DNA of 64,000 nt from Laetmonice hystrix (lineage: Eukaryota): the NCBI GenBank assembly GCA_965235115.1, contig OZ249436.1:24306001-24370000 (forward strand), given 5' to 3'. The notes beneath the pieces were generated by a model that saw only the letters and a list, made by a program, of their open reading frames with translations, ran no database searches and was not told the origin of the DNA. Positions within the stretch are counted from its first letter, which is position 1. Each line of letters opens with the position of its first letter. Shown one piece after another: positions 1 through 24,552 of this stretch. The translations under genes and the position numbers were made by a program.

Positions 1-60
1 TCCGCCACAAGGCAAATTCAGTCAATGCAAGCTGGAAAATCGAATGTCAAACCTAATGCT

Positions 61-70
61 CCCCCCCCCC
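61..70 (+). repeat. Length-variable poly-C tract (C7-C12), one per monomer
   Basis: C10 in unit 1, C8 in unit 3, C11 in unit 6, C12 in units 14, 16, 23 and 28, C7 in unit 24. It accounts for most of the 1751-1756 length spread. Confidence 0.95.
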
Positions 71-131
71 AGCACGTTAACTGAAAAAAATCAACTAGCT
101 TGAAAACTAGAATATAGCTTTGTTTAGCTAA

Positions 132-371
132 CAATCTACTCTCCCAGCGCCATCAACTCGCATACAGGCGTAAAAGCAAACGCACTGCCCCATATAATGC
201 TCCCAGCCTAAGACGATGTTGCAATTAATTTAAGATTAACAAGATGCACTAGTAATCCGATCCAAGCCTAATTACGTCATTGCTAGTTTCATAACCAAAT
301 CTCACAGAAAATACCCCACCCGCGCACATAACCTGAAAATATTTAACTTTTATCTCCAATGTATCCCTGTG
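132..371. repeat. Degenerate ancestral ~220-bp subunit, copy 1 of half A
   Basis: caatctactctcccagcgccatcaactcgcatacaggcgtaaaagc (132) aligns without gaps to 562 and 785. Homology to the 785 copy continues ~210 bp, to gcacataacctgaaaatatt (324) versus gcacatgagctggagatatt (968). Confidence 0.8.
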
Positions 372-561
372 CACCTAGTAGCACACAAGCGGGCCCAATT
401 TTGACATCCCAACACAAATACCGCAAATACCCGCCTAATGGCACAAAAAACTTTCTACCCCGTTGCAAGTCACATTAGCGTGCTGCTTGTCGTAAAAAAT
501 GGTGCAGACCATTTCTAAAGTCACAGTACCCCACTCCCGGCCTAATATTACGTTTCAGTAT

Positions 562-784
562 CCATATACGCTGCAAGCGGCAGGAACTCGAATACAGGCC
601 TAAAAGTAACCCCAGTCTAGCAATATCATACTCTCATGCCATATACGAGCTTGTAATTATCTTTAATTAATGGGCTCCGCAGCACCAACCCACTGCATTA
701 ACATTTGTTTAACAGCTTAACGCACCTTGTAAAAAATTTTCAAGTGCGTAAAAATGCGTGTCCACCTCCACATACTTTAAAAAT
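562..784. repeat. Degenerate ancestral ~220-bp subunit, copy 3 of half A (paralogue in half B starts at 1441)
   Basis: ccatatacgctgcaagcggcaggaactcgaatacaggcctaaaagt...acgagcttgtaatta matches the 132 and 785 modules over ~105 bp. The 3' part is more diverged. Confidence 0.7.
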
Positions 785-1025
785 CACTATACCCACCCAG
801 CGACATTCACTCTAATACACGCCTAAGAGGAACTTCACTGTCCCATTTGATTCTCCAGCACGTATAGGATGTTTCAAGTAACATTTATCCACGGTCTGGC
901 CCAATAACGTGCAACAAGGCATAGTAAGTCAATGCGACCTCGCATGTCAAACCTAACCCGCCCCCCAGCACATGAGCTGGAGATATTCAAATAGCTTGAA
1001 AACTAGAATATAGCTTTGCTTAATA
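785..1025. repeat. Degenerate ancestral ~220-bp subunit, copy 4 of half A (paralogue in half B starts at 1690)
   Basis: cactatacccacccagcgacattcactctaatacacgcctaagagg...cactgtcccatttgattctccagcacgtataggatgtttcaagtaa versus cactgccccatataatgctcccagcctaagacgatgttgcaattaa in the 132 copy. Confidence 0.8.
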
Positions 1026-1849
1026 CCATTATACCATCAACTCGCATTACAGGCCTAATGCGAAGCTCCCAGCCTAAAACGAGTTTCCAATTAATTTAAA
1101 GTTAACAAGATGCACTAATAATCGATTCCAAGCCTAATTAGGCCATTGCTAGTTGGATAACCAAATCTCATACAAAATACACCCTCCCGGCAGATGACCT
1201 GAGAATATTCAACTCTTATGTCCGATATATCCCTGTCCGCTTAGTAGCACCCAGCCGGGCCCCCATTTTGACATTGCAACACCAATACAGCAAGTGCCCA
1301 GCTAACAGCACAAATAACAGGATTCAGGGCTTCCTACCACGTTACAAGTCACAATAGATTGCTGCCTGTCGTAAAAATATACCAGACCATTTTAAAAAGT
1401 CACAGAACCCCAATCCGGCCCTAATATGTCACTCCCAGTACCAATAGACGCTGGAAGCACCATCAACTGAAATTCAGGCCTAGAACCCACCTCTCTCTAC
1501 CAATATCATGCACCTAGTCCGTATACGAGGTTGTAATTTACTTTAATCAACGGGCTGCGCCGCAGCAACCCACTCTGGTCTTTGCAATCTTTTTCAATAT
1601 GCGTTAACATTTGTGACCAGCTCAACGCGCCTTGTAAAATTTTTCAAAGTGCGTAAAAGTGTGTGTCCACCCCGACACGCTTTCCAAACCACTATACCCA
1701 CCGAGCGACATCCACTCAAATACAGGCTTCGACCGATCCTCACTGTGCCAATAATCCGCCACAAGGCAAATTCAGTCAATGCAAGCTGGAAAATCGAATG
1801 TCAAACCTAATGCTCCCCCCCCCCAGCACGTTAACTGAAAATAATCAAC
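992..1849. repeat. Sub-repeat half B (~858 bp), diverged paralogue of half A
   Basis: About 75 substitutions over ~387 hand-aligned gap-free positions (~80% identity), plus block indels. B lacks most of A 844-900 and part of A 175-198, and has extra sequence near 1576-1600 and 1315-1328. Confidence 0.95.
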
Positions 1850-3508
1850 TAGCTTGAAAACTAGAATATAGCTTTGTTAAGCTAACAATCTACTCTCCCA
1901 GCGCCATCAACTCGCATACAGGCGTAAAAGCAAACGCACTGCCCCATATAATGCTCCCAGCCTAAAACGATGTTGCAATTAATTTAAAATTAACAAGATG
2001 CACTAGTAATCCGATCCAAGCCTAATTACGTCATTGCTAGTTTCATAACCAAATCTCACAGAAAATACCCCACCCGCGCACATAACCTGAAAATATTCAA
2101 CTTTTATCTCCAATGTATCCCTGTGCACCTAGTAGCACCCAAGCGGGCCCAATTTTGACATTCCAACACAAATACCGCAAATACCCGCCTAATGGCACAA
2201 AAAACTTTCTACCCCGTTGCAAGTCACATTAGCTTGCTGCTTGTCGTAAAAAATGGTGCAGACCATTTCTAAAGTCACAGTACCCCACTCCCGGCCTAAT
2301 ATTACGTTTCAGTATCCATATACGCTGCAAGCGGCAGGAACTCGAATACAGGCCTAAAAGTAACCCCAGTCTAGCAATATCATACTCTCATGCCATATAC
2401 GAGCTTGTAATTATCTTTAATTAATGGGCTCCGCAGCACCAACCCACTGCATTAACATTTGTTTAACAGCTTAACGCACCTTGTAAAAAATTTTCAAGTG
2501 CGTAAAAATGCGTGTCCACCTCCACATACTTTAAACATCACTATACCCACCCAGCGACATTCACTCTAATACACGCCTAAGAGGAACTTCACTGTCCCAT
2601 TTGATTCTCCAGCACGTATAGGATGTTTCAAGTAACATTTATCCACGGTCTGGCCCAATAACGTGCAACAAGGCATAGTAAGTCAATGCGACCTCGCATG
2701 TCAAACCTAACCCGCCCCCCAGCACATGAGCTGGAGATATTCAAATAGCTTGAAAACTAGAATATAGCTTTGCTTAATACCATTATACCATCAACTCGCA
2801 TTACAGGCCTAATGCGAAGCTCCCAGCCTAAAACGAGTTTCCAATTAATTTAAAGTTAACAAGATGCACTAATAATCGATTCCAAGCCTAATTAGGCCAT
2901 TGCTAGTTGGATAACCAAATCTCATACAAAATACACCCTCCCGGCAGATGACCTGAGAATATTCAACTCTTATGTCCGATATATCCCTGTCCGCTTAGTA
3001 GCACCCAGCCGGGCCCCCATTTTGACATTGCAACACCAATACAGCAAGTGCCCAGCTAACAGCACAAATAACAGGATTCAGGGCTTCCTACCACGTTACA
3101 AGTCACAATAGATTGCTGCCTGTCGTAAAAATATACCAGACCATTTTAAAAAGTCACAGAACCCCAATCCGGCCCTAATATGTCACTCCCAGTACCAATA
3201 GACGCTGGAAGCACCATCAACTGAAATTCAGGCCTAGAACCCACCTCTCTCTACCAATATCATGCACCTAGTCCGTATACGAGGTTGTAATTTACTTTAA
3301 TCAACGGGCTGCGCCGCAGCAACCCACTCTGGTCTTTGCAATCTTTTTCAATATGCGTTAACATTTGTGACCAGCTCAACGCGCCTTGTAAAATTTTTCA
3401 AAGTGCGTAAAAGTGTGTGTCCACCCCGACACGCTTTCCAAACCACTATACCCACCGAGCGACATCCACTCAAATACAGGCTTCGACCGATCCTCACTGT
3501 GCCAATAA

Positions 3509-6500
3509 TCCGCCACAAGGCAAATTCAGTCAATGCAAGCTGGAAAATCGAATGTCAAACCTAATGCTCCCCCCCCAGCACGTTAACTGAAAAAAATCAA
3601 CTAGCTTGAAAACTAGAATATAGCTTTGTTTAGCTAACAATCTACTCTCCCAGCGCCATCAACTCGCATACAGGCGTAAAAGCAAACGCACTGCCCCATA
3701 TAATGCTCCCAGCCTAAGACGATGTTGCAATTAATTTAAGATTAACAAGATGCACTAGTAATCCGATCCAAGCCTAATTACGTCATTGCTAGTTTCATAA
3801 CCAAATCTCACAGAAAATACCCCACCCGCGCACATAACCTGAAAATATTCAACTTTTATCTCCAATGTATCCCTGTGCACCTAGTAGCACCCAAGCGGGC
3901 CCAATTTTGACATTCCAACACAAATACCGCAAATACCCGCCTAATGGCACAAAAAAACTTTCTACCCCGTTGCAAGTCACATTAGCTTGCTGCTTGTCGT
4001 AAAAAATGGTGCAGACCATTTCTAAAGTCACAGTACCCCACTCCCGGCCTAATATTACGTTTCAGTATCCATATACGCTGCAAGCGGCAAGAACTCGAAT
4101 ACAGGCCTAAAAGTAACCCCAGTCTAGCAATATCATACTCTCATGCCATATACGAGCTTGTAATTATCTTTAATTAATGGGCTCCGCAGCACCAACCCAC
4201 TGCATTAACATTTGTTTAACAGCTTGACGCACCTTGTAAAAAATTTTCAAGTGCGTAAAAATGCGTGTCCACCTCCACATACTTTAAAAATCACTATACC
4301 CACCCAGCGACATTCACTCTAATACACGCCTAAGAGGAACTTCACTGTCCCATTTGATTCTCCAGCACGTATAGGATGTTTCAAGTAACATTCATCCACG
4401 GTCTGGCCCAATAACGTGCAACAAGGCATAGTAAGTCAATGCGAGCTCGCATGTCAAACCTAACCCGCCCCCCAGCACATGAGCTGAAAATATTCAAATA
4501 GCTTGAAAACTAGAATATAGCTTTGCTTAATACCATTATACCATCAACTCGCATTACAGGCCTAATGCGAAGCTCCCAGCCTAAAACGAGTTTCCAATTA
4601 ATTTAAAGTTAACAAGATGCACTAATAATCGATTCCAAGCCTAATTAGGCCATTGCTAGTTGGATAACCAAATCTCATACAAAATACACCCTCCCGGCAG
4701 ATGACCTGAGAATATTCAACTCTTATGTCCGATATATCCCTGTCCGCTTTGTAGCACCCAGCCGGGCCCCCATTTTGACATTGCAACACCAATACAGCAA
4801 GTGCCCAGCTAACAGCACAAATAACAGGATTCAGGGCTTCCTACCACGTTACAAGTCACAATAGATTGCTGCCTGTCGTAAAAATATACCAGACCATTTT
4901 AAAAAGTCACAGAACCCCAATCCGGCCCTAATATGTCACTCCCAGTACCAATACACTCTGGAAGCACCATCAACTGAAATTCAGGCCTAGAACCCACCTC
5001 TCTCTACCAATATCATGCACCTAGTCCGTATACGAGGTTGTAATTTACTTTAATCAACGGGCTGCGCCGCAGCAACCCACTCTGGTCTTTGCAATCTTTT
5101 TCAATATGCGTTAACATTTGTAACCAGCTCAACGCGCCTTGTAAAATTTTTCAAAGTGCGTAAAAGTGTGTGTCCACCCCGACACGCTTTCCAAACCACT
5201 ATACCCACCGAGCGACATCCACTCAAATACAGGCTTCGACCGATCCTCACTGTGCCAATAATCCGCCACAAGGCAAATTCAGTCAATGCAAGCTGGAAAA
5301 TCGAATGTCAAACCTAATACTCCCCCCCCCAGCACGTTAACTGAAAATAATCAACTAGCTTGAAAACTAGAATATAGCTTTGTTTAGCTAACAATCTACT
5401 CTCCCAGCGCCATCAACTCGCATACAGGCGTAAAAGCAAACGCACTGCCCCATATAATGCTCCCAGCCTAAAACGATGTTGCAATTAATTTAAAATTAAC
5501 AAGATGCACTAGTAATCCGATCCAAGCTTAATTACGTCATTGCTAGTTTCATAACCAAATCTCACAGAAAATACCCCACCCGCGCACATAACCTGAAAAT
5601 ATTCAACTTTTATCTCCAATGTATCCCTGTGCACCTAGTAGCACCCAAGCGGGCCCAATTTTGACATCCCAACACAAATACCGCAAATACCCGCCTAATG
5701 GCACAAAAAACTTTCTACCCCGTTGCAAGTCACATTAGCGTGCTGCTTGTCGTAAAAAATGGTGCAGACCATTTCTAAAGTCACAGTACCCCACTCCCGG
5801 CCTAATATTACGTTTCAGTATCCATATACGCTGCAAGCGGCAGGAACTCGAATACAGGCCTAAAAGTAACCTCAGTCTAGCAATATCATACTCCCATGCC
5901 ATATACGAGCTTGTAATTATCTTTAATTAATGGGCTCCGCAGCACCAACCCACTGCATTAACATTTGTTTAACAGCTTAACACACCTTGTAAAATTTTTT
6001 CAAGTGCGTAAAAATGCGTGTCCACCTCCACATACTTTAAAAATCACTATACCCACCCAGCGACATCCACTCTAATACACGCCTAAAAGGAACTTCACTG
6101 TCCCATTTGATTCTCCAGCACGTATAGGATGTTTCAAGTAACATTCATCCACGGTCTGGCCCAATAACGTGCAACAAGGCATAGTAAGTCAATGCGAGCT
6201 CGCATGTCAAACCTAACCCGCCCCCAAGCACATGAGCTGAAATATTCAAATAGCTTGAAAACTAGAATATAGCTTTGCTTAATACCATTATACCATCAAC
6301 TCGCATTACAGGCCTAATGCGAAGCTCCCAGCCTAAAACGAGTTTCCAATTAATTTAAAGTTAACAAGATGCACTAATAATCGATTCCAAGCCTAATTAG
6401 GCCATTGCTAGTTGGATAACCAAATCTCATACAAAATACACCCTCCCGGCAGATGACCTGAGAATATTCAACTCTTATGTCCGATATATCCCTGTCCGCT

Positions 6501-9500
6501 TAGTAGCACCCAGCCGGGTCCCCATTTTGACATTGCAACACCAATACAGCAAGTGCCCAGCTAACAGCACAAATAACAGGATTCAGGGCTTCCTACCACG
6601 TTACAAGTCACAATAGATTGCTGCCTGTCGTAAAAATATACCAGACCATTTTAAAAAGTCACAGAACCCCAATCCGGCCCTAATATGTCACTCCCAGTAC
6701 CAATAGACGCTGGAAGCACCATCAACTGAAATTCAGGCCTAGAACCCACCTCTCTCTACCAATATCATGCACCTAGTCCGTATACGAGGTTGTAATTTAC
6801 TTTAATCAACGGGCTGCGCCGCAGCAACCCACTCTGGTCTTTGCAATCTTTTTCAATATGCGTTAACATTTGTGACCAGCTCAACGCGCCTTGTAAAATT
6901 TTTCAAAGTGTGTAAAAGTGTGTGTCCACCCCGACACGCTTTCCAAACCACTATACCCACCGAGCGACATCCACTCAAATACAGGCTTCGACCGATCCTC
7001 ACTGTGCCAATAATCCGCCACAAGGCAAATTCAGTCAATGCAAGCTGGAAAATCGAATGTCAAACCTAATGCTCCCCCCCCCAGCACGTTAACTGAAAAA
7101 AATCAACTAGCTTGAAAACTAGAATATAGCTTTGTTTAGCTAACAATCTACTCTCCCAGCGCCATCAACTCGCATACAGGCGTAAAAGCAAACGCACTGC
7201 CCCATATAATGCTCCCAGCATAAAACGATGTTGCAATTAATTTAAAATTAACAAGATGCACTAGTAATCCGATCCAAGCTTAATTACGTCATTGCTAGTT
7301 TCATAACCAAATCTCACAGAAAATACCCCACCCGGGCACATAACCTGAAAATATTCAACTTTTATCTCCAATGTATCCCTGTGCACCTAGTAGCACCCAA
7401 GCGGGCCCAATTTTGACATTCCAACACAAATACCGCAAATACCCGCCTAATGGCACAAAAAACTTTCTACCCCGTTGCAAGTCACATTAGCTTGCTGCTT
7501 GTCGTAAAAAATGGTGCAGACCATTTCTAAAGTCACAGTACCCCACTCCCGGCCTAATATTACGTTTCAGTATCCATATACGCTGCAAGCGGCAGGAACT
7601 CGAATACAGGCCTAAAAGTAACCCCAGTCTAGCAATATCATACTCTCATGCCATATACGAGCTTGTAATTATCTTTAATTAATGGGCTCCGCAGCACCAA
7701 CCCACTGCATTAACATTTGTTTAACAGCTTAACGCACCTTGTAAAAAAATTTTCAAGTGCGTAAAAATGCGTGTCCACCTCCACATACTTTAAAAATCAC
7801 TATACCCACCCAGCGACATTCACTCTAATACACGCCTAAGAGGAACTTCACTGTCCCATTTGATTCTCCAGCACGTATAGGATGTTTCAAGTAACATTTA
7901 TCCACGGTCTGGCCCAATAACGTGCAACAAGGCATAGTAAGTCAATGCGAGCTCGCATGTCAAACCTAACCCGCCCCCCAGCACATGAGCTGAAAATATT
8001 CAAATAGCTTGAAAACTAGAATATAGCTTTGCTTAATACCATTATACCATCAACTCGCATTACAGGCCTAATGCGAAGCTCCCAGCCTAAAACGAGTTTC
8101 CAATTAATTTAAAGTTAACAAGATGCACTAATAATCGATTCCAAGCCTAATTAGGCCATTGCTAGTTGGATAACCAAATCTCATACAAAATACACCCTCC
8201 CGGCAGATGACCTGAGAATATTCAACTCTTATGTCCGATATATCCCTGTCCGCTTAGTAGCACCCAGCCGGGCCCCCATTTTGACATTGCAACACCAATA
8301 CAGCAAGTGCCCAGCTAACAGCACAAATAACAGGATTCAGGGCTTCCTACCACGTTACAAGTCACAATAGATTGCTGCCTGTCGTAAAAATATACCAGAC
8401 CATTTTAAAAAGTCACAGAACCCCAATCCGGCCCTAATATGTCACTCCCAGTACCAATACACGCTGGAAGCACCATCAACTGAAATTCAGGCCTAGAACC
8501 CACCTCTCTCTACCAATATCATGCACCTAGTCCGTATACGAGGTTGTAATTTACTTTAATCAACGGGCTGCGCCGCAGCAACCCACTCTGGTCTTTGCAA
8601 TCTTTTCAATATGCGTTAACATTTGTAACCAGCTCAACGCGCCTTGTAAAATTTTTCAAAGTGCGTAAAAGTGTGTGTCCACCCCGACACGCTTTCCAAA
8701 CCACTATACCCACCGAGCGACATCCACTCAAATACAGGCTTCGACCGATCCTCACTGTGCCAATAATCCGCCACAAGGCAAATTCAGTCAATGCAAGCTG
8801 GAAAATCGAATGTCAAACCTAATGCTCCCCCCCCCCCAGCACGTTAACTGAAAATAATCAACTAGCTTGAAAACTAGAATATAGCTTTGTTAAGCTAACA
8901 ATCTACTCTCCCAGCGCCATCAACTCGCATACAGGCGTAAAAGCAAACGCACTGCCCCATATAATGCTTCCAGCCTAAAACGATGTTGCAATTAATTTAA
9001 AATTAACAAGATGCACTAGTAATCCGATCCAAGCCTAATTACGTCATTGCTAGTTTCATAACCAAATCTCACAGAAAATACCCCACCCGCGCACATAACC
9101 TGAAAATATTCAACTTTTATCTCCAATGTATCCCTGTGCACCTAGTAGCACCCAAGCGGGCCCAATTTTGACATTCCAACACAAATACCGCAAATACCCG
9201 CCTAATGGCACAAAAAACTTTCTACCCCGTTGCAAGTCACATTAGCTTGCTGCTTGTCGTAAAAAATGGTGCAGACCATTTCTAAAGTCACAGTACCCCA
9301 CTCCCGGCCTAATATTACGTTTCAGTATCCATATACGCTGCAAGCGGCAGGAACTCGAATACAGGCCTAAAAGTAACCCCAGTCTAGCAATATCATACTC
9401 TCATGCCATATACGAGCTTGTAATTATCTTTAATTAATGGGCTCCGCAGCACCAACCCACTGCATTAACATTTGTTTAACAGCTTAACGCACCTTGTAAA

Positions 9501-10521
9501 AAATTTTCAAGTGCGTAAAAATGCGTGTCCACCTCCACATACTTTAAAAATCACTATACCCACCCAGCGACATTCACTCTAATACACGCCTAAGAGGAAC
9601 TTCACTGTCCCATTTGATTCTCCAGCACGTATAGGATGTTTCAAGTAACATTTATCCACGGTCTGGCCCAATAACGTGCAACAAGGCATAGTAAGTCAAT
9701 GCGACCTCGCATGTCAAACCTAACCCGCCCCCCAGCACATGAGCTGGAGATATTCAAATAGCTTGAAAACTAGAATATAGCTTTGCTTAATACCATTATA
9801 CCATCAACTCGCATTACAGGCCTAATGCGAAGCTCCCAGCCTAAAACGAGTTTCCAATTAATTTAAAGTTAACAAGATGCACTAATAATCGATTCCAAGC
9901 CTAATTAGGCCATTGCTAGTTGGATAACCAAATCTCATACAAAATACACCCTCCCGGCAGATGACCTGAGAATATTCAACTCTTATGTCCGATATATCCC
10001 TGTCCGCTTAGTAGCACCCAGCCGGGCCCCCATTTTGACATTGCAACACCAATACAGCAAGTGCCCAGCTAACAGCACAAATAACAGGATTCAGGGCTTC
10101 CTACCACGTTACAAGTCACAATAGATTGCTGCCTGTCGTAAAAATATACCAGACCATTTTAAAAAGTCACAGAACCCCAATCCGGCCCTAATATGTCACT
10201 CCCAGTACCAATAGACGCTGGAAGCACCATCAACTGAAATTCAGGCCTAGAACCCACCTCTCTCTACCAATATCATGCACCTAGTCCGTATACGAGGTTG
10301 TAATTTACTTTAATCAACGGGCTGCGCCGCAGCAACCCACTCTGGTCTTTGCAATCTTTTTCAATATGCGTTAACATTTGTGACCAGCTCAACGCGCCTT
10401 GTAAAATTTTTCAAAGTGCGTAAAAGTGTGTGTCCACCCCGACACGCTTTCCAAACCACTATACCCACCGAGCGACATCCACTCAAATACAGGCTTCGAC
10501 CGATCCTCACTGTGCCAATAA
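3509..10521. repeat. Four-monomer higher-order block D-E-F-G, copy 1 (units 3-6)
   Basis: Ordered diagnostic haplotypes. D: A7 in gcacaaaaaaac, gcggcaagaa, cttgacg, gctttgtag, tacactctg. E: ctaatact, aagctta, aacctcag, taacacacc. F: agcataaaa, cgggcac, tcttttcaa. G: atgcttccag. Confidence 0.9.
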
Positions 10522-13500
10522 TCCGCCACAAGGCAAATTCAGTCAATGCAAGCTGGAAAATCGAATGTCAAACCTAATGCTCCCCCCCCCCAGCACGTTA
10601 ACTGAAAATAATCAACTAGCTTGAAAACTAGAATATAGCTTTGTTAAGCTAACAATCTACTCTCCCAGCGCCATCAACTCGCATACAGGCGTAAAAGCAA
10701 ACGCACTGCCCCATATAATGCTCCCAGCCTAAAACGATGTTGCAATTAATTTAAAATTAACAAGATGCACTAGTAATCCGATCCAAGCCTAATTACGTCA
10801 TTGCTAGTTTCATAACCAAATCTCACAGAAAATACCCCACCCGCGCACATAACCTGAAAATATTCAACTTTTATCTCCAATGTATCCCTGTGCACCTAGT
10901 AGCACCCAAGCGGGCCCAATTTTGACATTCCAACACAAATACCGCAAATACCCGCCTAATGGCACAAAAAACTTTCTACCCCGTTGCAAGTCACATTAGC
11001 TTGCTGCTTGTCGTAAAAAATGGTGCAGACCATTTCTAAAGTCACAGTACCCCACTCCCGGCCTAATATTACGTTTCAGTATCCATATACGCTGCAAGCG
11101 GCAGGAACTCGAATACAGGCCTAAAAGTAACCCCAGTCTAGCAATATCATACTCTCATGCCATATACGAGCTTGTAATTATCTTTAATTAATGGGCTCCG
11201 CAGCACCAACCCACTGCATTAACATTTGTTTAACAGCTTAACGCACCTTGTAAAAAATTTTCAAGTGCGTAAAAATGCGTGTCCACCTCCACATACTTTA
11301 AACATCACTATACCCACCCAGCGACATTCACTCTAATACACGCCTAAGAGGAACTTCACTGTCCCATTTGATTCTCCAGCACGTATAGGATGTTTCAAGT
11401 AACATTTATCCACGGTCTGGCCCAATAACGTGCAACAAGGCATAGTAAGTCAATGCGACCTCGCATGTCAAACCTAACCCGCCCCCCAGCACATGAGCTG
11501 GAGATATTCAAATAGCTTGAAAACTAGAATATAGCTTTGCTTAATACCATTATACCATCAACTCGCATTACAGGCCTAATGCGAAGCTCCCAGCCTAAAA
11601 CGAGTTTCCAATTAATTTAAAGTTAACAAGATGCACTAATAATCGATTCCAAGCCTAATTAGGCCATTGCTAGTTGGATAACCAAATCTCATACAAAATA
11701 CACCCTCCCGGCAGATGACCTGAGAATATTCAACTCTTATGTCCGATATATCCCTGTCCGCTTAGTAGCACCCAGCCGGGCCCCCATTTTGACATTGCAA
11801 CACCAATACAGCAAGTGCCCAGCTAACAGCACAAATAACAGGATTCAGGGCTTCCTACCACGTTACAAGTCACAATAGATTGCTGCCTGTCGTAAAAATA
11901 TACCAGACCATTTTAAAAAGTCACAGAACCCCAATCCGGCCCTAATATGTCACTCCCAGTACCAATAGACGCTGGAAGCACCATCAACTGAAATTCAGGC
12001 CTAGAACCCACCTCTCTCTACCAATATCATGCACCTAGTCCGTATACGAGGTTGTAATTTACTTTAATCAACGGGCTGCGCCGCAGCAACCCACTCTGGT
12101 CTTTGCAATCTTTTTCAATATGCGTTAACATTTGTGACCAGCTCAACGCGCCTTGTAAAATTTTTCAAAGTGCGTAAAAGTGTGTGTCCACCCCGACACG
12201 CTTTCCAAACCACTATACCCACCGAGCGACATCCACTCAAATACAGGCTTCGACCGATCCTCACTGTGCCAATAATCCGCCACAAGGCAAATTCAGTCAA
12301 TGCAAGCTGGAAAATCGAATGTCAAACCTAATGCTCCCCCCCCCCAGCACGTTAACTGAAAATAATCAACTAGCTTGAAAACTAGAATATAGCTTTGTTA
12401 AGCTAACAATCTACTCTCCCAGCGCCATCAACTCGCATACAGGCGTAAAAGCAAACGCACTGCCCCATATAATGCTCCCAGCCTAAAACGATGTTGCAAT
12501 TAATTTAAAATTAACAAGATGCACTAGTAATCCGATCCAAGCCTAATTACGTCATTGCTAGTTTCATAACCAAATCTCACAGAAAATACCCCACCCGCGC
12601 ACATAACCTGAAAATATTCAACTTTTATCTCCAATGTATCCCTGTGCACCTAGTAGCACCCAAGCGGGCCCAATTTTGACATTCCAACACAAATACCGCA
12701 AATACCCGCCTAATGGCACAAAAAACTTTCTACCCCGTTGCAAGTCACATTAGCTTGCTGCTTGTCGTAAAAAATGGTGCAGACCATTTCTAAAGTCACA
12801 GTACCCCACTCCCGGCCTAATATTACGTTTCAGTATCCATATACGCTGCAAGCGGCAGGAACTCGAATACAGGCCTAAAAGTAACCCCAGTCTAGCAATA
12901 TCATACTCTCATGCCATATACGAGCTTGTAATTATCTTTAATTAATGGGCTCCGCAGCACCAACCCACTGCATTAACATTTGTTTAACAGCTTAACGCAC
13001 CTTGTAAAAAATTTTCAAGTGCGTAAAAATGCGTGTCCACCTCCACATACTTTAAACATCACTATACCCACCCAGCGACATTCACTCTAATACACGCCTA
13101 AGAGGAACTTCACTGTCCCATTTGATTCTCCAGCACGTATAGGATGTTTCAAGTAACATTTATCCACGGTCTGGCCCAATAACGTGCAACAAGGCATAGT
13201 AAGTCAATGCGACCTCGCATGTCAAACCTAACCCGCCCCCCAGCACATGAGCTGGAGATATTCAAATAGCTTGAAAACTAGAATATAGCTTTGCTTAATA
13301 CCATTATACCATCAACTCGCATTACAGGCCTAATGCGAAGCTCCCAGCCTAAAACGAGTTTCCAATTAATTTAAAGTTAACAAGATGCACTAATAATCGA
13401 TTCCAAGCCTAATTAGGCCATTGCTAGTTGGATAACCAAATCTCATACAAAATACACCCTCCCGGCAGATGACCTGAGAATATTCAACTCTTATGTCCGA

Positions 13501-16500
13501 TATATCCCTGTCCGCTTAGTAGCACCCAGCCGGGCCCCCATTTTGACATTGCAACACCAATACAGCAAGTGCCCAGCTAACAGCACAAATAACAGGATTC
13601 AGGGCTTCCTACCACGTTACAAGTCACAATAGATTGCTGCCTGTCGTAAAAATATACCAGACCATTTTAAAAAGTCACAGAACCCCAATCCGGCCCTAAT
13701 ATGTCACTCCCAGTACCAATAGACGCTGGAAGCACCATCAACTGAAATTCAGGCCTAGAACCCACCTCTCTCTACCAATATCATGCACCTAGTCCGTATA
13801 CGAGGTTGTAATTTACTTTAATCAACGGGCTGCGCCGCAGCAACCCACTCTGGTCTTTGCAATCTTTTTCAATATGCGTTAACATTTGTGACCAGCTCAA
13901 CGCGCCTTGTAAAATTTTTCAAAGTGCGTAAAAGTGTGTGTCCACCCCGACACGCTTTCCAAACCACTATACCCACCGAGCGACATCCACTCAAATACAG
14001 GCTTCGACCGATCCTCACTGTGCCAATAATCCGCCACAAGGCAAATTCAGTCAATGCAAGCTGGAAAATCGAATGTCAAACCTAATGCTCCCCCCCCCAG
14101 CACGTTAACTGAAAAAAATCAACTAGCTTGAAAACTAGAATATAGCTTTGTTTAGCTAACAATCTACTCTCCCAGCGCCATCAACTCGCATACAGGCGTA
14201 AAAGCAAACGCACTGCCCCATATAATGCTCCCAGCCTAAGACGATGTTGCAATTAATTTAAGATTAACAAGATGCACTAGTAATCCGATCCAAGCCTAAT
14301 TACGTCATTGCTAGTTTCATAACCAAATCTCACAGAAAATACCCCACCCGGGCACATAACCTGAAAATATTCAACTTTTATCTCCAATGTATCCCTGTGC
14401 ACCTAGTAGCACCCAAGCGGGCCCAATTTTGACATCCCAACACAAATACCGCAAATACCCGCCTAATGGCACAAAAAACTTTCTACCCCGTTGCAAGTCA
14501 CATTAGCGTGCTGCTTGTCGTAAAAAATGGTGCAGACCATTTCTAAAGTCACAGTACCCCACTCCCGGCCTAATATTACGTTTCAGTATCCATATACGCT
14601 GCAAGCGGCAGGAACTCGAATACAGGCCTAAAAGTAACCTCAGTCTAGCAATATCATACTCCCATGCCATATACGAGCTTGTAATTATCTTTAATTAATG
14701 GGCTCCGCAGCACCAACCCACTGCATTAACATTTGTTTAACAGCTTAACACACCTTGTAAAATTTTTTCAAGTGCGTAAAAATGCGTGTCCACCTCCACA
14801 TACTTTAAAAATCACTATACCCACCCAGCGACATCCACTCTAATACACGCCTAAAAGGAACTTCACTGTCCCATTTGATTCTCCAGCACGTATAGGATGT
14901 TTCAAGTAACATTCATCCACGGTCTGGCCCAATAACGTGCAACAAGGCATAGTAAGTCAATGCGAGCTCGCATGTCAAACCTAACCCGCCCCCAAGCACA
15001 TGAGCTGAAAATATTCAAATAGCTTGAAAACTAGAATATAGCTTTGCTTAATACCATTATACCATCAACTCGCATTACAGGCCTAATGCGAAGCTCCCAG
15101 CCTAAAACGAGTTTCCAATTAATTTAAAGTTAACAAGATGCACTAATAATCGATTCCAAGCCTAATTAGGCCATTGCTAGTTGGATAACCAAATCTCATA
15201 CAAAATACACCCTCCCGGCAGATGACCTGAGAATATTCAACTCTTATGTCCGATATATCCCTGTCCGCTTAGTAGCACCCAGCCGGGCCCCCATTTTGAC
15301 ATTGCAACACCAATACAGCAAGTGCCCAGCTAACAGCACATATAACAGGATTCAGGGCTTCCTACCACGTTACAAGTCACAATAGATTGCTGCCTGTCGT
15401 AAAAATATACCAGACCATTTTAAAAAGTCACAGAACCCCAATCCGGCCCTAATATGTCACTCCCAGTACCAATAGACGCTGGAAGCACCATCAACTGAAA
15501 TTCAGGCCTAGAACCCACCTCTCTCTACCAATATCATGCACCTAGTCCGTATACGAGGTTGTAATTTACTTTAATCAACGGGCTGCGCCGCAGCAACCCA
15601 CTCTGGTCTTTGCAATCTTTTTCAATATGCGTTAACATTTGTGACCAGCTCAACGCGCCTTGTAAAATTTTTCAAAGTGCGTAAAAGTGTGTGTCCACCC
15701 CGACACGCTTTCCAAACCACTATACCCACCGAGCGACATCCACTCAAATACAGGCTTCGACCGATCCTCACTGTGCCAATAATCCGCCACAAGGCAAATT
15801 CAGTCAATGCAAGCTGGAAAATCGAATGTCAAACCTAATGCTCCCCCCCCAGCACGTTAACTGAAAAAAATCAACTAGCTTGAAAACTAGAATATAGCTT
15901 TGTTTAGCTAACAATCTACTCTCCCAGCGCCATCAACTCGCATACAGGCGTAAAAGCAAACGCACTGCCCCATATAATGCTCCCAGCATAAAACGATGTT
16001 GCAATTAATTTAAAATTAACAAGATGCACTAGTAATCCGATCCAAGCTTAATTACGTCATTGCTAGTTTCATAACCAAATCTCACAGAAAATACCCCACC
16101 CGGGCACATAACCTGAAAATATTCAACTTTTATCTCCAATGTATCCCTGTGCACCTAGTAGCACCCAAGCGGGCCCAATTTTGACATTCCAACACAAATA
16201 CCGCAAATACCCGCCTAATGGCACAAAAAACTTTCTACCCCGTTGCAAGTCACATTAGCTTGCTGCTTGTCGTAAAAAATGGTGCAGACCATTTCTAAAG
16301 TCACAGTACCCCACTCCCGGCCTAATATTACGTTTCAGTATCCATATACGCTGCAAGCGGCAGGAACTCGAATACAGGCCTAAAAGTAACCCCAGTCTAG
16401 CAATATCATACTCTCATGCCATATACGAGCTTGTAATTATCTTTAATTAATGGGCTCCGCAGCACCAACCCACTGCATTAACATTTGTTTAACAGCTTAA

Positions 16501-19500
16501 CGCACCTTGTAAAAAAATTTTCAAGTGCGTAAAAATGCGTGTCCACCTCCACATACTTTAAAAATCACTATACCCACCCAGCGACATTCACTCTAATACA
16601 CGCCTAAGAGGAACTTCACTGTCCCATTTGATTCTCCAGCACGTATAGGATGTTTCAAGTAACATTTATCCACGGTCTGGCCCAATAACGTGCAACAAGG
16701 CATAGTAAGTCAATGCGACCTCGCATGTCAAACCTAACCCGCCCCCCAGCACATGAGCTGGAGATATTCAAATAGCTTGAAAACTAGAATATAGCTTTGC
16801 TTAATACCATTATACCATCAACTCGCATTACAGGCCTAATGCGAAGCTCCCAGCCTAAAACGAGTTTCCAATTAATTTAAAGTTAACAAGATGCACTAAT
16901 AATCGATTCCAAGCCTAATTAGGCCATTGCTAGTTGGATAACCAAATCTCATACAAAATACACCCTCCCGGCAGATGACCTGAGAATATTCAACTCTTAT
17001 GTCCGATATATCCCTGTCCGCTTAGTAGCACCCAGCCGGGCCCCCATTTTGACATTGCAACACCAATACAGCAAGTGCCCAGCTAACAGCACAAATAACA
17101 GGATTCAGGGCTTCCTACCACGTTACAAGTCACAATAGATTGCTGCCTGTCGTAAAAATATACCAGACCATTTTAAAAAGTCACAGAACCCCAATCCGGC
17201 CCTAATATGTCACTCCCAGTACCAATACACGCTGGAAGCACCATCAACTGAAATTCAGGCCTAGAACCCACCTCTCTCTACCAATATCATGCACCTAGTC
17301 CGTATACGAGGTTGTAATTTACTTTAATCAACGGGCTGCGCCGCAGCAACCCACTCTGGTCTTTGCAATCTTTTTCAATATGCGTTAACATTTGTGACCA
17401 GCTCAACGCGCCTTGTAAAATTTTTCAAAGTGCGTAAAAGTGTGTGTCCACCCCGACACGCTTTCCAAACCACTATACCCACCGAGCGACATCCACTCAA
17501 ATACAGGCTTCGACCGATCCTCACTGTGCCAATAATCCGCCACAAGGCAAATTCAGTCAATGCAAGCTGGAAAATCGAATGTCAAACCTAATGCTCCCCC
17601 CCCCCAGCACGTTAACTGAAAATAATCAACTAGCTTGAAAACTAGAATATAGCTTTGTTAAGCTAACAATCTACTCTCCCAGCGCCATCAACTCGCATAC
17701 AGGCGTAAAAGCAAACGCACTGCCCCATATAATGCTCCCAGCCTAAAACGATGTTGCAATTAATTTAAAATTAACAAGATGCACTAGTAATCCGATCCAA
17801 GCCTAATTACGTCATTGCTAGTTTCATAACCAAATCTCACAGAAAATACCCCACCCGCGCACATAACCTGAAAATATTCAACTTTTATCTCCAATGTATC
17901 CCTGTGCACCTAGTAGCACCCAAGCGGGCCCAATTTTGACATTCCAACACAAATACCGCAAATACCCGCCTAATGGCACAAAAAACTTTCTACCCCGTTG
18001 CAAGTCACATTAGCTTGCTGCTTGTCGTAAAAAATGGTGCAGACCATTTCTAAAGTCACAGTACCCCACTCCCGGCCTAATATTACGTTTCAGTATCCAT
18101 ATACGCTGCAAGCGGCAGGAACTCGAATACAGGCCTAAAAGTAACCCCAGTCTAGCAATATCATACTCTCATGCCATATACGAGCTTGTAATTATCTTTA
18201 ATTAATGGGCTCCGCAGCACCAACCCACTGCATTAACATTTGTTTAACAGCTTAACGCACCTTGTAAAAAATTTTCAAGTGCGTAAAAATGCGTGTCCAC
18301 CTCCACATACTTTAAACATCACTATACCCACCCAGCGACATTCACTCTAATACACGCCTAAGAGGAACTTCACTGTCCCATTTGATTCTCCAGCACGTAT
18401 AGGATGTTTCAAGTAACATTTATCCACGGTCTGGCCCAATAACGTGCAACAAGGCATAGTAAGTCAATGCGACCTCGCATGTCAAACCTAACCCGCCCCC
18501 CAGCACATGAGCTGGAGATATTCAAATAGCTTGAAAACTAGAATATAGCTTTGCTTAATACCATTATACCATCAACTCGCATTACAGGCCTAATGCGAAG
18601 CTCCCAGCCTAAAACGAGTTTCCAATTAATTTAAAGTTAACAAGATGCACTAATAATCGATTCCAAGCCTAATTAGGCCATTGCTAGTTGGATAACCAAA
18701 TCTCATACAAAATACACCCTCCCGGCAGATGACCTGAGAATATTCAACTCTTATGTCCGATATATCCCTGTCCGCTTAGTAGCACCCAGCCGGGCCCCCA
18801 TTTTGACATTGCAACACCAATACAGCAAGTGCCCAGCTAACAGCACAAATAACAGGATTCAGGGCTTCCTACCACGTTACAAGTCACAATAGATTGCTGC
18901 CTGTCGTAAAAATATACCAGACCATTTTAAAAAGTCACAGAACCCCAATCCGGCCCTAATATGTCACTCCCAGTACCAATAGACGCTGGAAGCACCATCA
19001 ACTGAAATTCAGGCCTAGAACCCACCTCTCTCTACCAATATCATGCACCTAGTCCGTATACGAGGTTGTAATTTACTTTAATCAACGGGCTGCGCCGCAG
19101 CAACCCACTCTGGTCTTTGCAATCTTTTTCAATATGCGTTAACATTTGTGACCAGCTCAACGCGCCTTGTAAAATTTTTCAAAGTGCGTAAAAGTGTGTG
19201 TCCACCCCGACACGCTTTCCAAACCACTATACCCACCGAGCGACATCCACTCAAATACAGGCTTCGACCGATCCTCACTGTGCCAATAATCCGCCACAAG
19301 GCAAATTCAGTCAATGCAAGCTGGAAAATCGAATGTCAAACCTAATGCTCCCCCCCCCAGCACGTTAACTGAAAAAAATCAACTAGCTTGAAAACTAGAA
19401 TATAGCTTTGTTTAGCTAACAATCTACTCTCCCAGCGCCATCAACTCGCATACAGGCGTAAAAGCAAACGCACTGCCCCATATAATGCTCCCAGCCTAAG

Positions 19501-22500
19501 ACGATGTTGCAATTAATTTAAGATTAACAAGATGCACTAGTAATCCGATCCAAGCCTAATTACGTCATTGCTAGTTTCATAACCAAATCTCACAGAAAAT
19601 ACCCCACCCGCGCACATAACCTGAAAATATTTAACTTTTATCTCCAATGTATCCCTGTGCACCTAGTAGCACACAAGCGGGCCCAATTTTGACATCCCAA
19701 CACAAATACCGCAAATACCCGCCTAATGGCACAAAAAACTTTCTACCCCGTTGCAAGTCACATTAGCGTGCTGCTTGTCGTAAAAAATGGTGCAGACCAT
19801 TTCTAAAGTCACAGTACCCCACTCCCGGCCTAATATTACGTTTCAGTATCCATATACGCTGCAAGCGGCAGGAACTCGAATACAGGCCTAAAAGTAACCC
19901 CAGTCTAGCAATATCATACTCTCATGCCATATACGAGCTTGTAATTATCTTTAATTAATGGGCTCCGCAGCACCAACCCACTGCATTAACATTTGTTTAA
20001 CAGCTTAACGCACCTTGTAAAAAATTTTCAAGTGCGTAAAAATGCGTGTCCACCTCCACATACTTTAAAAATCACTATACCCACCCAGCGACATTCACTC
20101 TAATACACGCCTAAGAGGAACTTCACTGTCCCATTTGATTCTCCAGCACGTATAGGATGTTTCAAGTAACATTTATCCACGGTCTGGCCCAATAACGTGC
20201 AACAAGGCATAGTAAGTCAATGCGACCTCGCATGTCAAACCTAACCCGCCCCCCAGCACATGAGCTGGAGATATTCAAATAGCTTGAAAACTAGAATATA
20301 GCTTTGCTTAATACCATTATACCATCAACTCGCATTACAGGCCTAATGCGAAGCTCCCAGCCTAAAACGAGTTTCCAATTAATTTAAAGTTAACAAGATG
20401 CACTAATAATCGATTCCAAGCCTAATTAGGCCATTGCTAGTTGGATAACCAAATCTCATACAAAATACACCCTCCCGGCAGATGACCTGAGAATATTCAA
20501 CTCTTATGTCCGATATATCCCTGTCCGCTTAGTAGCACCCAGCCGGGCCCCCATTTTGACATTGCAACACCAATACAGCAAGTGCCCAGCTAACAGCACA
20601 AATAACAGGATTCAGGGCTTCCTACCACGTTACAAGTCACAATAGATTGCTGCCTGTCGTAAAAATATACCAGACCATTTTAAAAAGTCACAGAACCCCA
20701 ATCCGGCCCTAATATGTCACTCCCAGTACCAATAGACGCTGGAAGCACCATCAACTGAAATTCAGGCCTAGAACCCACCTCTCTCTACCAATATCATGCA
20801 CCTAGTCCGTATACGAGGTTGTAATTTACTTTAATCAACGGGCTGCGCCGCAGCAACCCACTCTGGTCTTTGCAATCTTTTTCAATATGCGTTAACATTT
20901 GTGACCAGCTCAACGCGCCTTGTAAAATTTTTCAAAGTGCGTAAAAGTGTGTGTCCACCCCGACACGCTTTCCAAACCACTATACCCACCGAGCGACATC
21001 CACTCAAATACAGGCTTCGACCGATCCTCACTGTGCCAATAATCCGCCACAAGGCAAATTCAGTCAATGCAAGCTGGAAAATCGAATGTCAAACCTAATG
21101 CTCCCCCCCCCCAGCACGTTAACTGAAAATAATCAACTAGCTTGAAAACTAGAATATAGCTTTGTTAAGCTAACAATCTACTCTCCCAGCGCCATCAACT
21201 CGCATACAGGCGTAAAAGCAAACGCACTGCCCCATATAATGCTCCCAGCCTAAAACGATGTTGCAATTAATTTAAAATTAACAAGATGCACTAGTAATCC
21301 GATCCAAGCCTAATTACGTCATTGCTAGTTTCATAACCAAATCTCACAGAAAATACCCCACCCGCGCACATAACCTGAAAATATTCAACTTTTATCTCCA
21401 ATGTATCCCTGTGCACCTAGTAGCACCCAAGCGGGCCCAATTTTGACATTCCAACACAAATACCGCAAATACCCGCCTAATGGCACAAAAAACTTTCTAC
21501 CCCGTTGCAAGTCACATTAGCTTGCTGCTTGTCGTAAAAAATGGTGCAGACCATTTCTAAAGTCACAGTACCCCACTCCCGGCCTAATATTACGTTTCAG
21601 TATCCATATACGCTGCAAGCGGCAGGAACTCGAATACAGGCCTAAAAGTAACCCCAGTCTAGCAATATCATACTCTCATGCCATATACGAGCTTGTAATT
21701 ATCTTTAATTAATGGGCTCCGCAGCACCAACCCACTGCATTAACATTTGTTTAACAGCTTAACGCACCTTGTAAAAAATTTTCAAGTGCGTAAAAATGCG
21801 TGTCCACCTCCACATACTTTAAACATCACTATACCCACCCAGCGACATTCACTCTAATACACGCCTAAGAGGAACTTCACTGTCCCATTTGATTCTCCAG
21901 CACGTATAGGATGTTTCAAGTAACATTTATCCACGGTCTGGCCCAATAACGTGCAACAAGGCATAGTAAGTCAATGCGACCTCGCATGTCAAACCTAACC
22001 CGCCCCCCAGCACATGAGCTGGAGATATTCAAATAGCTTGAAAACTAGAATATAGCTTTGCTTAATACCATTATACCATCAACTCGCATTACAGGCCTAA
22101 TGCGAAGCTCCCAGCCTAAAACGAGTTTCCAATTAATTTAAAGTTAACAAGATGCACTAATAATCGATTCCAAGCCTAATTAGGCCATTGCTAGTTGGAT
22201 AACCAAATCTCATACAAAATACACCCTCCCGGCAGATGACCTGAGAATATTCAACTCTTATGTCCGATATATCCCTGTCCGCTTAGTAGCACCCAGCCGG
22301 GCCCCCATTTTGACATTGCAACACCAATACAGCAAGTGCCCAGCTTACAGCACAAATAACAGGATTCAGGGCTTCCTACCACGTTACAAGTCACAATAGA
22401 TTGCTGCCTGTCGTAAAAATATACCAGACCATTTTAAAAAGTCACAGAACCCCAATCCGGCCCTAATATGTCACTCCCAGTACCAATAGACGCTGGAAGC

Positions 22501-24552
22501 ACCATCAACTGAAATTCAGGCCTAGAACCCACCTCTCTCTACCAATATCATGCACCTAGTCCGTATACGAGGTTGTAATTTACTTTAATCAACGGGCTGC
22601 GCCGCAGCAACCCACTCTGGTCTTTGCAATCTTTTTCAATATGCGTTAACATTTGTGACCAGCTCAACGCGCCTTGTAAAATTTTTCAAAGTGCGTAAAA
22701 GTGTGTGTCCACCCCGACACGCTTTCCAAACCACTATACCCACCGAGCGACATCCACTCAAATACAGGCTTCGACCGATCCTCACTGTGCCAATAATCCG
22801 CCACAAGGCAAATTCAGTCAATGCAAGCTGGAAAATCGAATGTCAAACCTAATGCTCCCCCCCCCCCCAGCACGTTAACTGAAAAAAATCAACTAGCTTG
22901 AAAACTAGAATATAGCTTTGTTTAGCTAACAATCTACTCTCCCAGCGCCATCAACTCGCATACAGGCGTAAAAGCAAACGCACTGCCCCATATAATGCTC
23001 CCAGCCTAAGACGATGTTGCAATTAATTTAAGATTAACAAGATGCACTAGTAATCCGATCCAAGCCTAATTACGTCATTGCTAGTTTCATAACCAAATCT
23101 CACAGAAAATACCCCACCCGCGCACATAACCTGAAAATATTTAACTTTTATCTCCAATGTATCCCTGTGCACCTAGTAGCACACAAGCGGGCCCAATTTT
23201 GACATCCCAACACAAATACCGCAAATACCCGCCTAATGGCACAAAAAACTTTCTACCCCGTTGCAAGTCACATTAGCGTGCTGCTTGTCGTAAAAAATGG
23301 TGCAGACCATTTCTAAAGTCACAGTACCCCACTCCCGGCCTAATATTACGTTTCAGTATCCATATACGCTGCAAGCGGCAGGAACTCGAATACAGGCCTA
23401 AAAGTAACCTCAGTCTAGCAATATCATACTCCCATGCCATATACGAGCTTGTAATTATCTTTAATTAATGGGCTCCGCAGCACCAACCCACTGCATTAAC
23501 ATTTGTTTAACAGCTTAACGCACCTTGTAAAATTTTTTCAAGTGCGTAAAAATGCGTGTCCACCTCCACATACTTTAAAAATCACTATACCCACCCAGCG
23601 ACATCCACTCTAATACACGCCTAAAAGGAACTTCACTGTCCCATTTGATTCTCCAGCACGTATAGGATGTTTCAAGTAACATTCATCCACGGTCTGGCCC
23701 AATAACGTGCAGCAAGGCATAGTAAGTCAATGCGAGCTCGCATGTCAAACCTAACCCGCCCCCAAGCACATGAGCTGAAAATATTCAAATAGCTTGAAAA
23801 CTAGAATATAGCTTTGCTTAATACCATTATACCATCAACTCGCATTACAGGCCTAATGCGAAGCTCCCAGCCTAAAACGAGTTTCCAATTAATTTAAAGT
23901 TAACAAGATGCACTAATAATCGATTCCAAGCCTAATTAGGCCATTGCTAGTTGGATAACCAAATCTCATACAAAATACACCCTCCCGGCAGATGACCTGA
24001 GAATATTCAACTCTTATGTCCGATATATCCCTGTCCGCTTAGTAGCACCCAGCCGGGCCCCCATTTTGACATTGCAACACCAATACAGCAAGTGCCCAGC
24101 TAACAGCACAAATAACAGGATTCAGGGCTTCCTACCACGTTACAAGTCACAATAGATTGCTGCCTGTCGTAAAAATATACCAGACCATTTTAAAAAGTCA
24201 CAGAACCCCAATCCGGCCCTAATATGTCACTCCCAGTACCAATACACGCTGGAAGCACCATCAACTGAAATTCAGGCCTAGAACCCACCTCTCTCTACCA
24301 ATATCATGCACCTAGTCCGTATACGAGGTTGTAATTTACTTTAATCAACGGGCTGCGCCGCAGCAACCCACTCTGGTCTTTGCAATCTTTTTCAATATGC
24401 GTTAACATTTGTGACCAGCTCAACGCGCCTTGTAAAATTTTTCAAAGTGCGTAAAAGTGTGTGTCCACCCCGACACGCTTTCCAAACCACTATACCCACC
24501 GAGCGACATCCACTCAAATACAGGCTTCGACCGATCCTCACTGTGCCAATAA

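What the first reader, a model, noticed from the sequence alone, without database searches (positions are those of the whole stretch)
72..1790. Hidden deeper layer: each half is about four degenerate ~220-bp units, so the monomer is roughly an 8-mer
A module aligns without gaps at 132, 562 and 785: caatctactctcccagcgccatcaactcgcatacaggcgtaaaag / ccatatacgctgcaagcggcaggaactcgaatacaggcctaaaag / cactatacccacccagcgacattcactctaatacacgcctaagag. It recurs at ~1026, 1441 and 1690, with a weak fourth start at ~372 (cacctagtagcacacaagcg). A second motif (gcaNNtNaNctgNNaNaNtNaa) lies at 72, 324, 968 and 1190. Spacings are 190-250 bp and 1754/8 = 219. Inference: the hierarchy is ~220 -> ~880 -> 1754 -> ~7000 bp, starting from a roughly nucleosome-scale unit. 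The 372 copy is the least certain.
Basis: partly seen in the sequence, partly recalled or inferred. Interest (0 to 1): 0.7.

Follow-up and report, generated by a model that had tools for sequence, protein, structure and literature searches.

The report
Layered satellite DNA with hidden subunits
A long non-coding tandem repeat keeps traces of the shorter repeats it was built from by successive duplications, an ordinary and well-known way for satellite DNA to grow, here with a clear 10-base rhythm that may help it wrap on nucleosomes.

Summary
The hidden layer is real, but it is not a clean 8-mer of 220 bp. The window is one array of about 36.5 copies of a 1,754-bp satellite (0.76% mean divergence), made of two ~880-bp halves. 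Each half holds three old subunits (55-69% alike; the two best-kept are 240-241 bp). Only four slots carry a full-length subunit. The proposed start at 372 is background. A fourth subunit, if real, starts near 397/1264 (borderline). The '~7000-bp' top layer is wrong: similarity recurs at 5, 12 and 24 monomers, not 4. This is a new member of a known kind, a multi-level higher-order satellite. It is plausibly centromeric, untested. Earlier scan notes call the genome a probable marine annelid (unverified); no look-alike was found on other DNA in the scan.

The parts
1..64000 (+). Uninterrupted head-to-tail array, 36 whole monomers of 1751-1757 bp (one of 1702) plus partial ends
   Evidence: 64000 of 64000 bases covered at 95% identity or more, no minus-strand hit; lengths; mean pairwise difference 13.3 substitutions, 0.76%
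132..1885 (+). First whole monomer (1754 bp), a dimer of halves A and B; carries the 10.0-bp periodicity
132..1025 (+). Half A (894 bp)
   Evidence: 70-75% identical to half B with gaps; 645 of 803 aligned columns
1026..1885 (+). Half B (860 bp)
132..371 (+). Subunit 1, full length: front module 132-250 plus rear module 251-371 (second motif at 324)
   Evidence: 62% over 217 columns to subunit at 785
372..561 (+). Slot 2 of half A: no significant match at 372; best candidate for a degenerate fourth subunit starts at 397
   Evidence: PWM top non-training hit at 397, 1.8 bits; null best-in-190 95th/99th percentile -1.6/2.7, best-in-1754 95th 5.2; profile p 0.003-0.16 by null
562..784 (+). Subunit 3: front module 562-676 is homologous; tail 677-784 has no held-out match to the rear module
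785..1025 (+). Subunit 4, full length (second motif at 968)
1026..1236 (+). Subunit 5 (B copy of subunit 1), head shortened by deletions of about 11 and 19 bp (second motif at 1190)
   Evidence: 86% to subunit 1; indels
1237..1441 (+). Slot 6 (B copy of slot 2, 79% alike); candidate start 1264, in register with 397
1442..1689 (+). Subunit 7 (B copy of subunit 3); its tail holds a 50-bp internal duplication, 1580-1638 against 1630-1688, 41 of 59 identical
1690..1885 (+). Subunit 8 (B copy of subunit 4) with a 58-bp internal deletion and a length-variable C run near 1815-1824 (second motif at 1826)
3638..10652 (+). Monomers 3-6, which recur nearly unchanged as monomers 15-18 (24682-31700) and 27-30 (45728-52744): loose 12-monomer (~21 kb) superstructure
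   Evidence: at most 4 differences per monomer pair; lags 5, 12 and 24 significant in 5000 permutations
61638..61639 (+). Junction of a 51-bp deletion unique to monomer 36

Best explanation
This is a heterochromatic, plausibly (peri)centromeric satellite of a marine animal, built by rounds of 'diverge, then duplicate a block', as in Smith-type unequal exchange or break-induced replication. (1) Inferred: an old array of ~240-bp monomers drifted to 55-69% identity. (2) Inferred from the tree: three neighbouring monomers and a fourth stretch, either a badly eroded monomer or foreign DNA, were fixed as one ~880-bp unit; one tail was rebuilt by a 50-bp duplication. (3) Shown: that unit exists as two copies, A and B, 80% alike on aligned columns, with deletions of 11-58 bp. 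(4) Shown: the 1754-bp A-B dimer is the unit that is now amplified and homogenised; its copies recombine and are copied in blocks of 5 and 12. (5) Shown: a 10.0-bp rhythm of A/T pairs, out of phase with G/C pairs, runs through parts that no longer align with each other. Inferred: it sets the rotational position of nucleosomes, as described for centromeric satellites. The subunits are most likely fossils of the duplication history, not eight equal nucleosome seats.
For: Held-out HMM hits in 6 slots, 36 of 36 monomers. Identity ladder 55-69% between slots, 74-86% between A/B copies of a slot, 99.2% between monomers. Tree pairs slots across halves with support 96-100. 249 of 630 informative site pairs show all four gametes, and lags 5, 12 and 24 are significant. 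Periodicity: period 9.9-10.0, bootstrap 9.7-10.1 for A, AA and WW; p at most 0.005 against 400 simulated hierarchical repeats of each of two kinds; p 0.003 in a non-redundant piece. In run X1, 2830 of 4402 laid contigs are under 95% alike. 20 of the 29 listed differences that no window copy carries are the other half's letter (40 of 145 rows were shown), as expected of sister arrays near the A/B ancestor. No stop-to-stop frame over 87 aa, no Rfam match, no tRNA in 1-3700. Precedent: HORs in 76 of 171 species and frozen dimers becoming new monomers (PMC4053949); 10-bp WW periodicity in many satellites (PMC8997354; PMC3053214).
Against: The fourth subunit is borderline and the tails of subunits 3 and 7 do not match the rear module. 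The periodicity is uneven. With all periods allowed it is significant in only 2 of 8 single slots (372-561 and 1441-1689), and p is 0.25 in the non-redundant B piece. A/B conservation is not 10-bp periodic. TT runs out of phase with AA, and 10.0 is below the 10.4 quoted for nucleosomal DNA (PMC3117857). The support for 10-bp-multiple indels depends on how they are parsed (p 0.03-0.4). Contigs of one half laid on the other (488 of 4402 fit two places) may explain part of the 'intermediate' letters.
Confidence: 0.72

Rival explanations
1. True degenerate 8-mer, as the first reader thought but re-registered: all four slots per half descend from one monomer, with the fourth starting at 397/1264 and the 562/1442 tails being eroded rear modules.
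For: 397 is the best non-training PWM hit in the monomer and its B copy peaks in exact register at 1264. Front-module profile against slot 2/6: z 2.0-3.5 under column and 5-base shuffles. The four-slot profile aligns to subunits 3/7 out to column 189-242.
Against: With 10- and 20-base block shuffles p is 0.02-0.16. The PWM score is below the 95th percentile of a whole-monomer null. HMMs give no hit. Rear module against the 3/7 tails scores z below 0.
Confidence: 0.5
2. The ~240-bp subunit began as the central tandem repeat of a non-autonomous Helentron (HINE) or another transposon and escaped into a long array.
For: In oyster, satellite-like repeats are central repeats of HINEs and some are related to classical satellites (PMC7492417, passages). 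Earlier scan notes report Helentron nests 141 kb and 494 kb before this window (unchecked).
Against: No flanking module or interruption in 64 kb. The oyster arrays average 3-5 monomers of 140-180 bp. No look-alike among noted windows (near-identical DNA only).
Confidence: 0.15
3. The ground layer is a 10-bp (or telomere-like 5-6-bp) simple repeat, and the 10.0-bp rhythm is its remnant rather than a product of nucleosome-related selection.
For: The period is the integer 10.0, and 10.4 lies outside the bootstrap range. Strong constant strand skew, GC -0.30 and AT +0.14. One hexamer occurs 9 times against 0.8 expected. Held-out gain of +5.0 and +2.7 bits for two of four module classes at period 10.
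Against: Cross-validated cyclic HMMs give a negative total at every period tried: 8 periods, 16. No 5- or 6-bp autocorrelation. No 60-bp layer. The hexamer count is inflated by the duplications.
Confidence: 0.15
4. Assembly or concatemer artefact of one circular 1754-bp molecule.
For: Very high identity and no flanks in the window.
Against: 46 variable columns, 36 informative and shared in patterned blocks. The monomer junction 1885-132 is bridged by contigs in 4 of 4 runs from four studies. Earlier notes place the window over 24 Mb into one piece with genes (unchecked).
Confidence: 0.02

Closest known systems
Human alpha-satellite higher-order repeats (PMC8997354, passages read)
   Same: Monomers within the unit only 50-70% alike, copies of the multimer nearly identical; longer units built from shorter multimers, with irregular monomers
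   Different: Base unit about 240 bp, not 171; far more eroded (slots 165-265 bp, one in four barely recognisable); no CENP-B-box-like site (motif recalled); no kinship tested or implied; centromere role not shown
Frozen dimers and truncated-monomer HORs: New World monkey 343-bp repeat, sorghum AB dimer, switchgrass 792- and 1,131-bp HORs (PMC4053949, section 11 and passages)
   Same: A multimer of an older monomer has become the repeating unit, and its parts have their own substitutions and indels
   Different: Here two nested freezes (3-4 monomers, then a dimer) plus a loose 5/12-monomer layer are visible in one array
Supra-nucleosomal satellites with heterogeneous HORs in the 325-genome centromere atlas (bioRxiv 10.64898/2026.09.17.752431, sections 4, 6, 9 read)
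   Same: 103 of 263 families have monomers of 201 bp to 5 kb; HORs are prevalent, regimented or heterogeneous. The 5/12 pattern here is of the heterogeneous type with partial period
   Different: The sections read do not dissect eroded internal subunits; 'annelid' does not occur in its main text. Its supplementary family table was not seen and could list this repeat
Maize CentC and bovid SAT1.723 10-bp periodicity (PMC3053214, PMC6475130; passages)
   Same: About 10-bp dinucleotide rhythm in a satellite; in CentC nucleosomes follow the rhythm rather than the monomer
   Different: Shown with CENH3 ChIP in maize; here from sequence only, with AA and TT out of phase

Membership tests
Satellite DNA | Long head-to-tail tandem array | tested here: met
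   64000 of 64000 bases, one strand
Satellite DNA | Non-coding, no known RNA gene | tested here: met
   longest stop-to-stop frame 87 aa; 0 Rfam matches at E up to 1; 0 tRNA, all on 1-3700, two monomers
Higher-order-repeat satellite | Identity between adjacent multimers far above identity between the monomers inside (criterion of PMC4053949) | tested here: met
   99.2% between 1754-bp units against 80% between halves and 55-69% between slots
Higher-order-repeat satellite | Monomer types cluster by position, not by neighbour | tested here: met
   three slot pairs, support 96-100 in the whole-subunit tree
   6 of 8 shown; slots 2 and 6 borderline at 397/1264, not at 372/1237
   lag 4 z +0.9; lags 5, 12, 24 significant
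Centromeric satellite | Bound by CENP-A / at the primary constriction | not testable with these tools
   no ChIP or FISH data
Centromeric satellite | Large arrays shared by most chromosomes; among the most abundant repeats | tested here: inconclusive
Centromeric satellite | About 10-bp WW periodicity (common, not defining) | tested here: met
Primate alpha satellite | 171-bp monomer and CENP-B box | tested here: not met
   slots 165-265 bp, best-kept 240-241; no site within 1 mismatch of the recalled box core, 5 at 2 mismatches, about what chance gives by my estimate
HINE/Helentron central repeat | Short array between two terminal modules | tested here: not met
   no interruption in 64 kb; array ends lie outside the window, so origin from such an element is untested
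Telomere-derived satellite | 5- or 6-bp ground periodicity | tested here: not met
   autocorrelation at lags 5 and 6 within 1 SD of null; cyclic HMM negative

The most novel reading that the evidence does not exclude
This is the functional centromeric satellite of a marine annelid, a group whose centromere sequences my searches found almost undescribed. Its 10.0-bp rhythm has outlived sequence homology between modules because substitutions and indels (11, 19, 12, 58, 11, 51 and a 50-bp duplication, near whole helical turns) are filtered for rotational nucleosome phasing. The family, with its intermediate sister arrays in the same genome, would then be a dated natural series for testing whether selection acts on DNA shape rather than sequence in centromere satellites.
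Probability: 0.2. Interest if true: 0.55.

Novelty: new member of a known kind. Interest (0 to 1): 0.3.

Why it matters
Nested higher-order satellites and 10-bp periodicity are both well described, so the architecture would not surprise a specialist. The value is as a specimen. Four time layers are readable in one array (about 65%, 80%, 99.2% identity, and near-identical blocks). Sister variants exist in public data. If the host is a marine annelid, little is in print: 0 papers for polychaete + satellite + tandem repeat + centromer, 1 for annelid genome + the same terms. If CENP-A binds it, it gives a centromere marker for that group and a test of shape-level constraint.

Tried and rejected
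Start at 372: background. 4-monomer top layer: rejected. A ~60-bp layer suggested by eye from a recurring hexamer: profile self-comparisons of the front and rear modules gave p 0.35-0.51. Ancestral 5-60-bp simple repeat: all cross-validated totals negative (one search stopped on time after 8 of 16 periods). Rear module in the tails of subunits 3/7: no held-out support. 10-bp periodic conservation between halves: absent. Indel lengths as multiples of 10: p 0.03-0.4 depending on parsing and period, so not counted as evidence. CpG-driven mutation: 5 of 27 transitions at CpG-compatible sites against 21% of sites, no excess. Dyad-symmetry excess: 35 against 33 +/- 7; 15 short inverted pairs, none notable. 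Tandem Repeats Finder: 0 rows, period limit 500. Coding, Rfam, tRNA: nothing. Collection scans: 0 matches in metagenome contigs, viral contigs, genome contigs. No long listed piece spans the monomer. Scan look-ups: nothing near, by sequence, by relatives or by words. Paper searches found no description of this repeat; they cannot match sequence, and the atlas preprint's supplements were not seen.

Full report
What the window is. All 64,000 bases are one head-to-tail array on one strand: 64000 of 64000 are covered by monomer 1 at 95% identity or more. There are 37 starts and 36 whole monomers of 1751-1757 bp, one of 1702. GC is 43-44% with constant skews. In 1-3700 there is no stop-to-stop frame over 87 aa, no Rfam match and no tRNA. 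Public runs holding it are three runs of one sample of coded organism A (66-75% of words), two marine metagenomes (68%, 26%) and coded organism B (35%). Earlier scan notes on the same piece call the animal a probable annelid or marine worm. I did not test that.

Checking the observation. The quoted modules are at 132, 562 and 785 and match without gaps at 31-34 of 44 bases. 1690 and 1442 match them at 27-35 of 44. 372 matches at 12-19 of 44, and 1026 at 13-17 because its head is deleted. Low-stringency BLAST shows the A/B diagonal (70-75%) and further diagonals at 62-70%, E down to 3e-13. The pattern is identical in 36 of 36 monomers.

Anatomy. A front module of about 115 bp stands in six slots (132, 562, 785, 1026, 1442, 1690), 55-69% alike between slots and 74-81% between A/B copies. 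An HMM of it finds nothing else in the monomer. The tails of the 562 and 1442 units are different, and the 1442 tail holds a 50-bp duplication (41 of 59). Slots 372-561 and 1237-1440 are 79% alike to each other and reach z of at most 2.3 against the other six. Their best candidate start is 397, the top non-training PWM hit (1.8 bits), with its B copy peaking in register at 1264. That is near the 99th percentile of a slot-sized null but below the 95th of a monomer-sized null. Profile alignment gives p 0.003-0.04 with column or 5-base shuffles, 0.02-0.05 with 10-base blocks and 0.06-0.16 with 20-base blocks, over five gap settings. I rate a fourth subunit about even. The two slots that align end to end are 240 and 241 bp; their B copies are shortened by deletions of about 11, 19 and 58 bp. 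So 219 bp is an average of eroded slots.

Order of events. Trees of all six subunits pair 132/1026, 562/1442 and 785/1690 with support 96-100; the front-module tree leaves 562/1442 unresolved (slots 2 and 6 were left out as unalignable). The multi-subunit ~880-bp unit therefore predates the A/B duplication. Public contigs agree. In X1, 2830 of 4402 laid contigs are under 95% alike, low-depth joints skip 867-896 bases in X1, X3 and X6, and loose ends in all four runs show a complete front module where half B has a truncated one. Of the 40 differences shown (of 145), 11 are polymorphic in the window; 20 of the other 29 are the letter of the opposite half. This points to sister arrays close to the A/B ancestor. 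Mis-laying between halves (488 of 4402 fit two places) may contribute, and I could not read the sister sequences whole.

Top layer. Monomers differ by 13.3 substitutions on average (46 variable columns). In 5000 permutations lags 5, 12 and 24 are more alike than chance (p 0.001, 0.0006, 0.0006; 24 lags tested), and lag 4 is not (z +0.9). Monomers 3-6 recur as 15-18 and 27-30. 249 of 630 informative site pairs show four gametes, so copies recombine or convert. This is a heterogeneous pattern with a loose 12-monomer period, not ~7000 bp.

Base autocorrelation peaks at 10, 19-20, 40 and 50-51 with troughs between; the periodogram gives 7.7 at 9.75-10 against a null maximum of 5.0. It survives nulls that mimic the duplication hierarchy (p 0.0025 and 0.005) and holds in a non-redundant piece and at lags under 46 (p 0.003). 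WW and AA are in phase; SS, GC, CG and also TT are 4-5 bases out of phase. The period is 9.9-10.0, bootstrap 9.7-10.1 for A, AA and WW. Against over-reading: with all periods allowed it is significant in 2 of 8 single slots and not in the non-redundant B piece (p 0.25); conservation between halves is not 10-periodic; and indel lengths are only suggestive. No shared decamer or other short ancestral repeat passes cross-validation, and no 60-bp layer appears.

How it most likely works. Shown: three nested levels of duplication, ongoing homogenisation of the 1754-bp unit with block copying, and the 10-bp rhythm. Inferred: unequal exchange or break-induced replication as the engine (models in PMC8997354, passages); rotational nucleosome phasing from the rhythm (same paper; PMC5844345 and PMC3053214, passages); and a heterochromatic or centromeric location. 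I put a centromeric or pericentromeric location at about 0.55, from length, homogeneity, abundance and periodicity only. Slots of 165-265 bp argue against one nucleosome per subunit; in maize CentC nucleosomes follow the 10-bp rhythm, not the monomer.

Comparison with what is known. It meets the HOR criterion of PMC4053949 (section 11 read), which found HORs in 76 of 171 species and described frozen dimers becoming new monomers. The 325-genome atlas (bioRxiv 10.64898/2026.09.17.752431; abstract, passages and sections 4, 6, 9 read) lists 103 of 263 families at 201 bp to 5 kb and finds HORs prevalent. It works like alpha satellite but is not a member. For annelids, one preprint (10.1101/2024.05.16.594344, passages) calls centromeres monocentric and found no predominant satellite at putative centromeres. 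PMC7492417, PMC6475130 and PMC3117857 were read as passages. Eight searches found no description of this repeat, but they cannot match sequence and the atlas's supplementary tables were not seen.

Verdict. Observation partly confirmed, interpretation partly supported. New member of a known kind, interest 0.3. The most novel reading left open, a shape-constrained annelid centromere satellite, has probability 0.2.

Noticed in passing
window 132-1885: 10.0-bp periodicity of A, T, AA, TT and WW; AA and TT out of phase; strongest in slot 372-561 and unit 1441-1689
   Followed up: yes
window 3638-52744: Loose 12-monomer (~21 kb) superstructure with 5-monomer sub-spacing; monomer types recur as a block at monomers 3, 15 and 27
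   Followed up: yes
window 132-1885, runs X1, X3, X5, X6: Sister variants 80-95% alike that carry letters of both halves and a complete front module; summed depth in X1 is about tenfold higher over 1135-1252 than over 1548-1724
   Followed up: partly
window 807 and 827: 25 of 36 window monomers carry a letter that only about 7% of X1 depth carries, suggesting a locally amplified variant
   Followed up: partly
window 196-1025 against 1062-1885: A/B conservation shows a peak at period about 14 bp (z 3.9, 64 periods tested); unexplained, may be chance
   Followed up: no
window 1-64000: Constant strand skew (GC -0.30, AT +0.14) and a hexamer over-represented 9 against 0.8 per monomer; resembles a telomere C-strand by recall, but no 5-6-bp period
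   Followed up: partly
window 1815-1824: C run varies by up to 5 bases among monomers and accounts for most of the 1751-1757 length spread
   Followed up: partly
window 61638-61639: 51-bp deletion found only in monomer 36
   Followed up: partly
runs X3, X5, X6: The repeat occurs at low depth in two marine metagenomes and in a run of a second coded organism; relative, prey or contamination not distinguished
   Followed up: no
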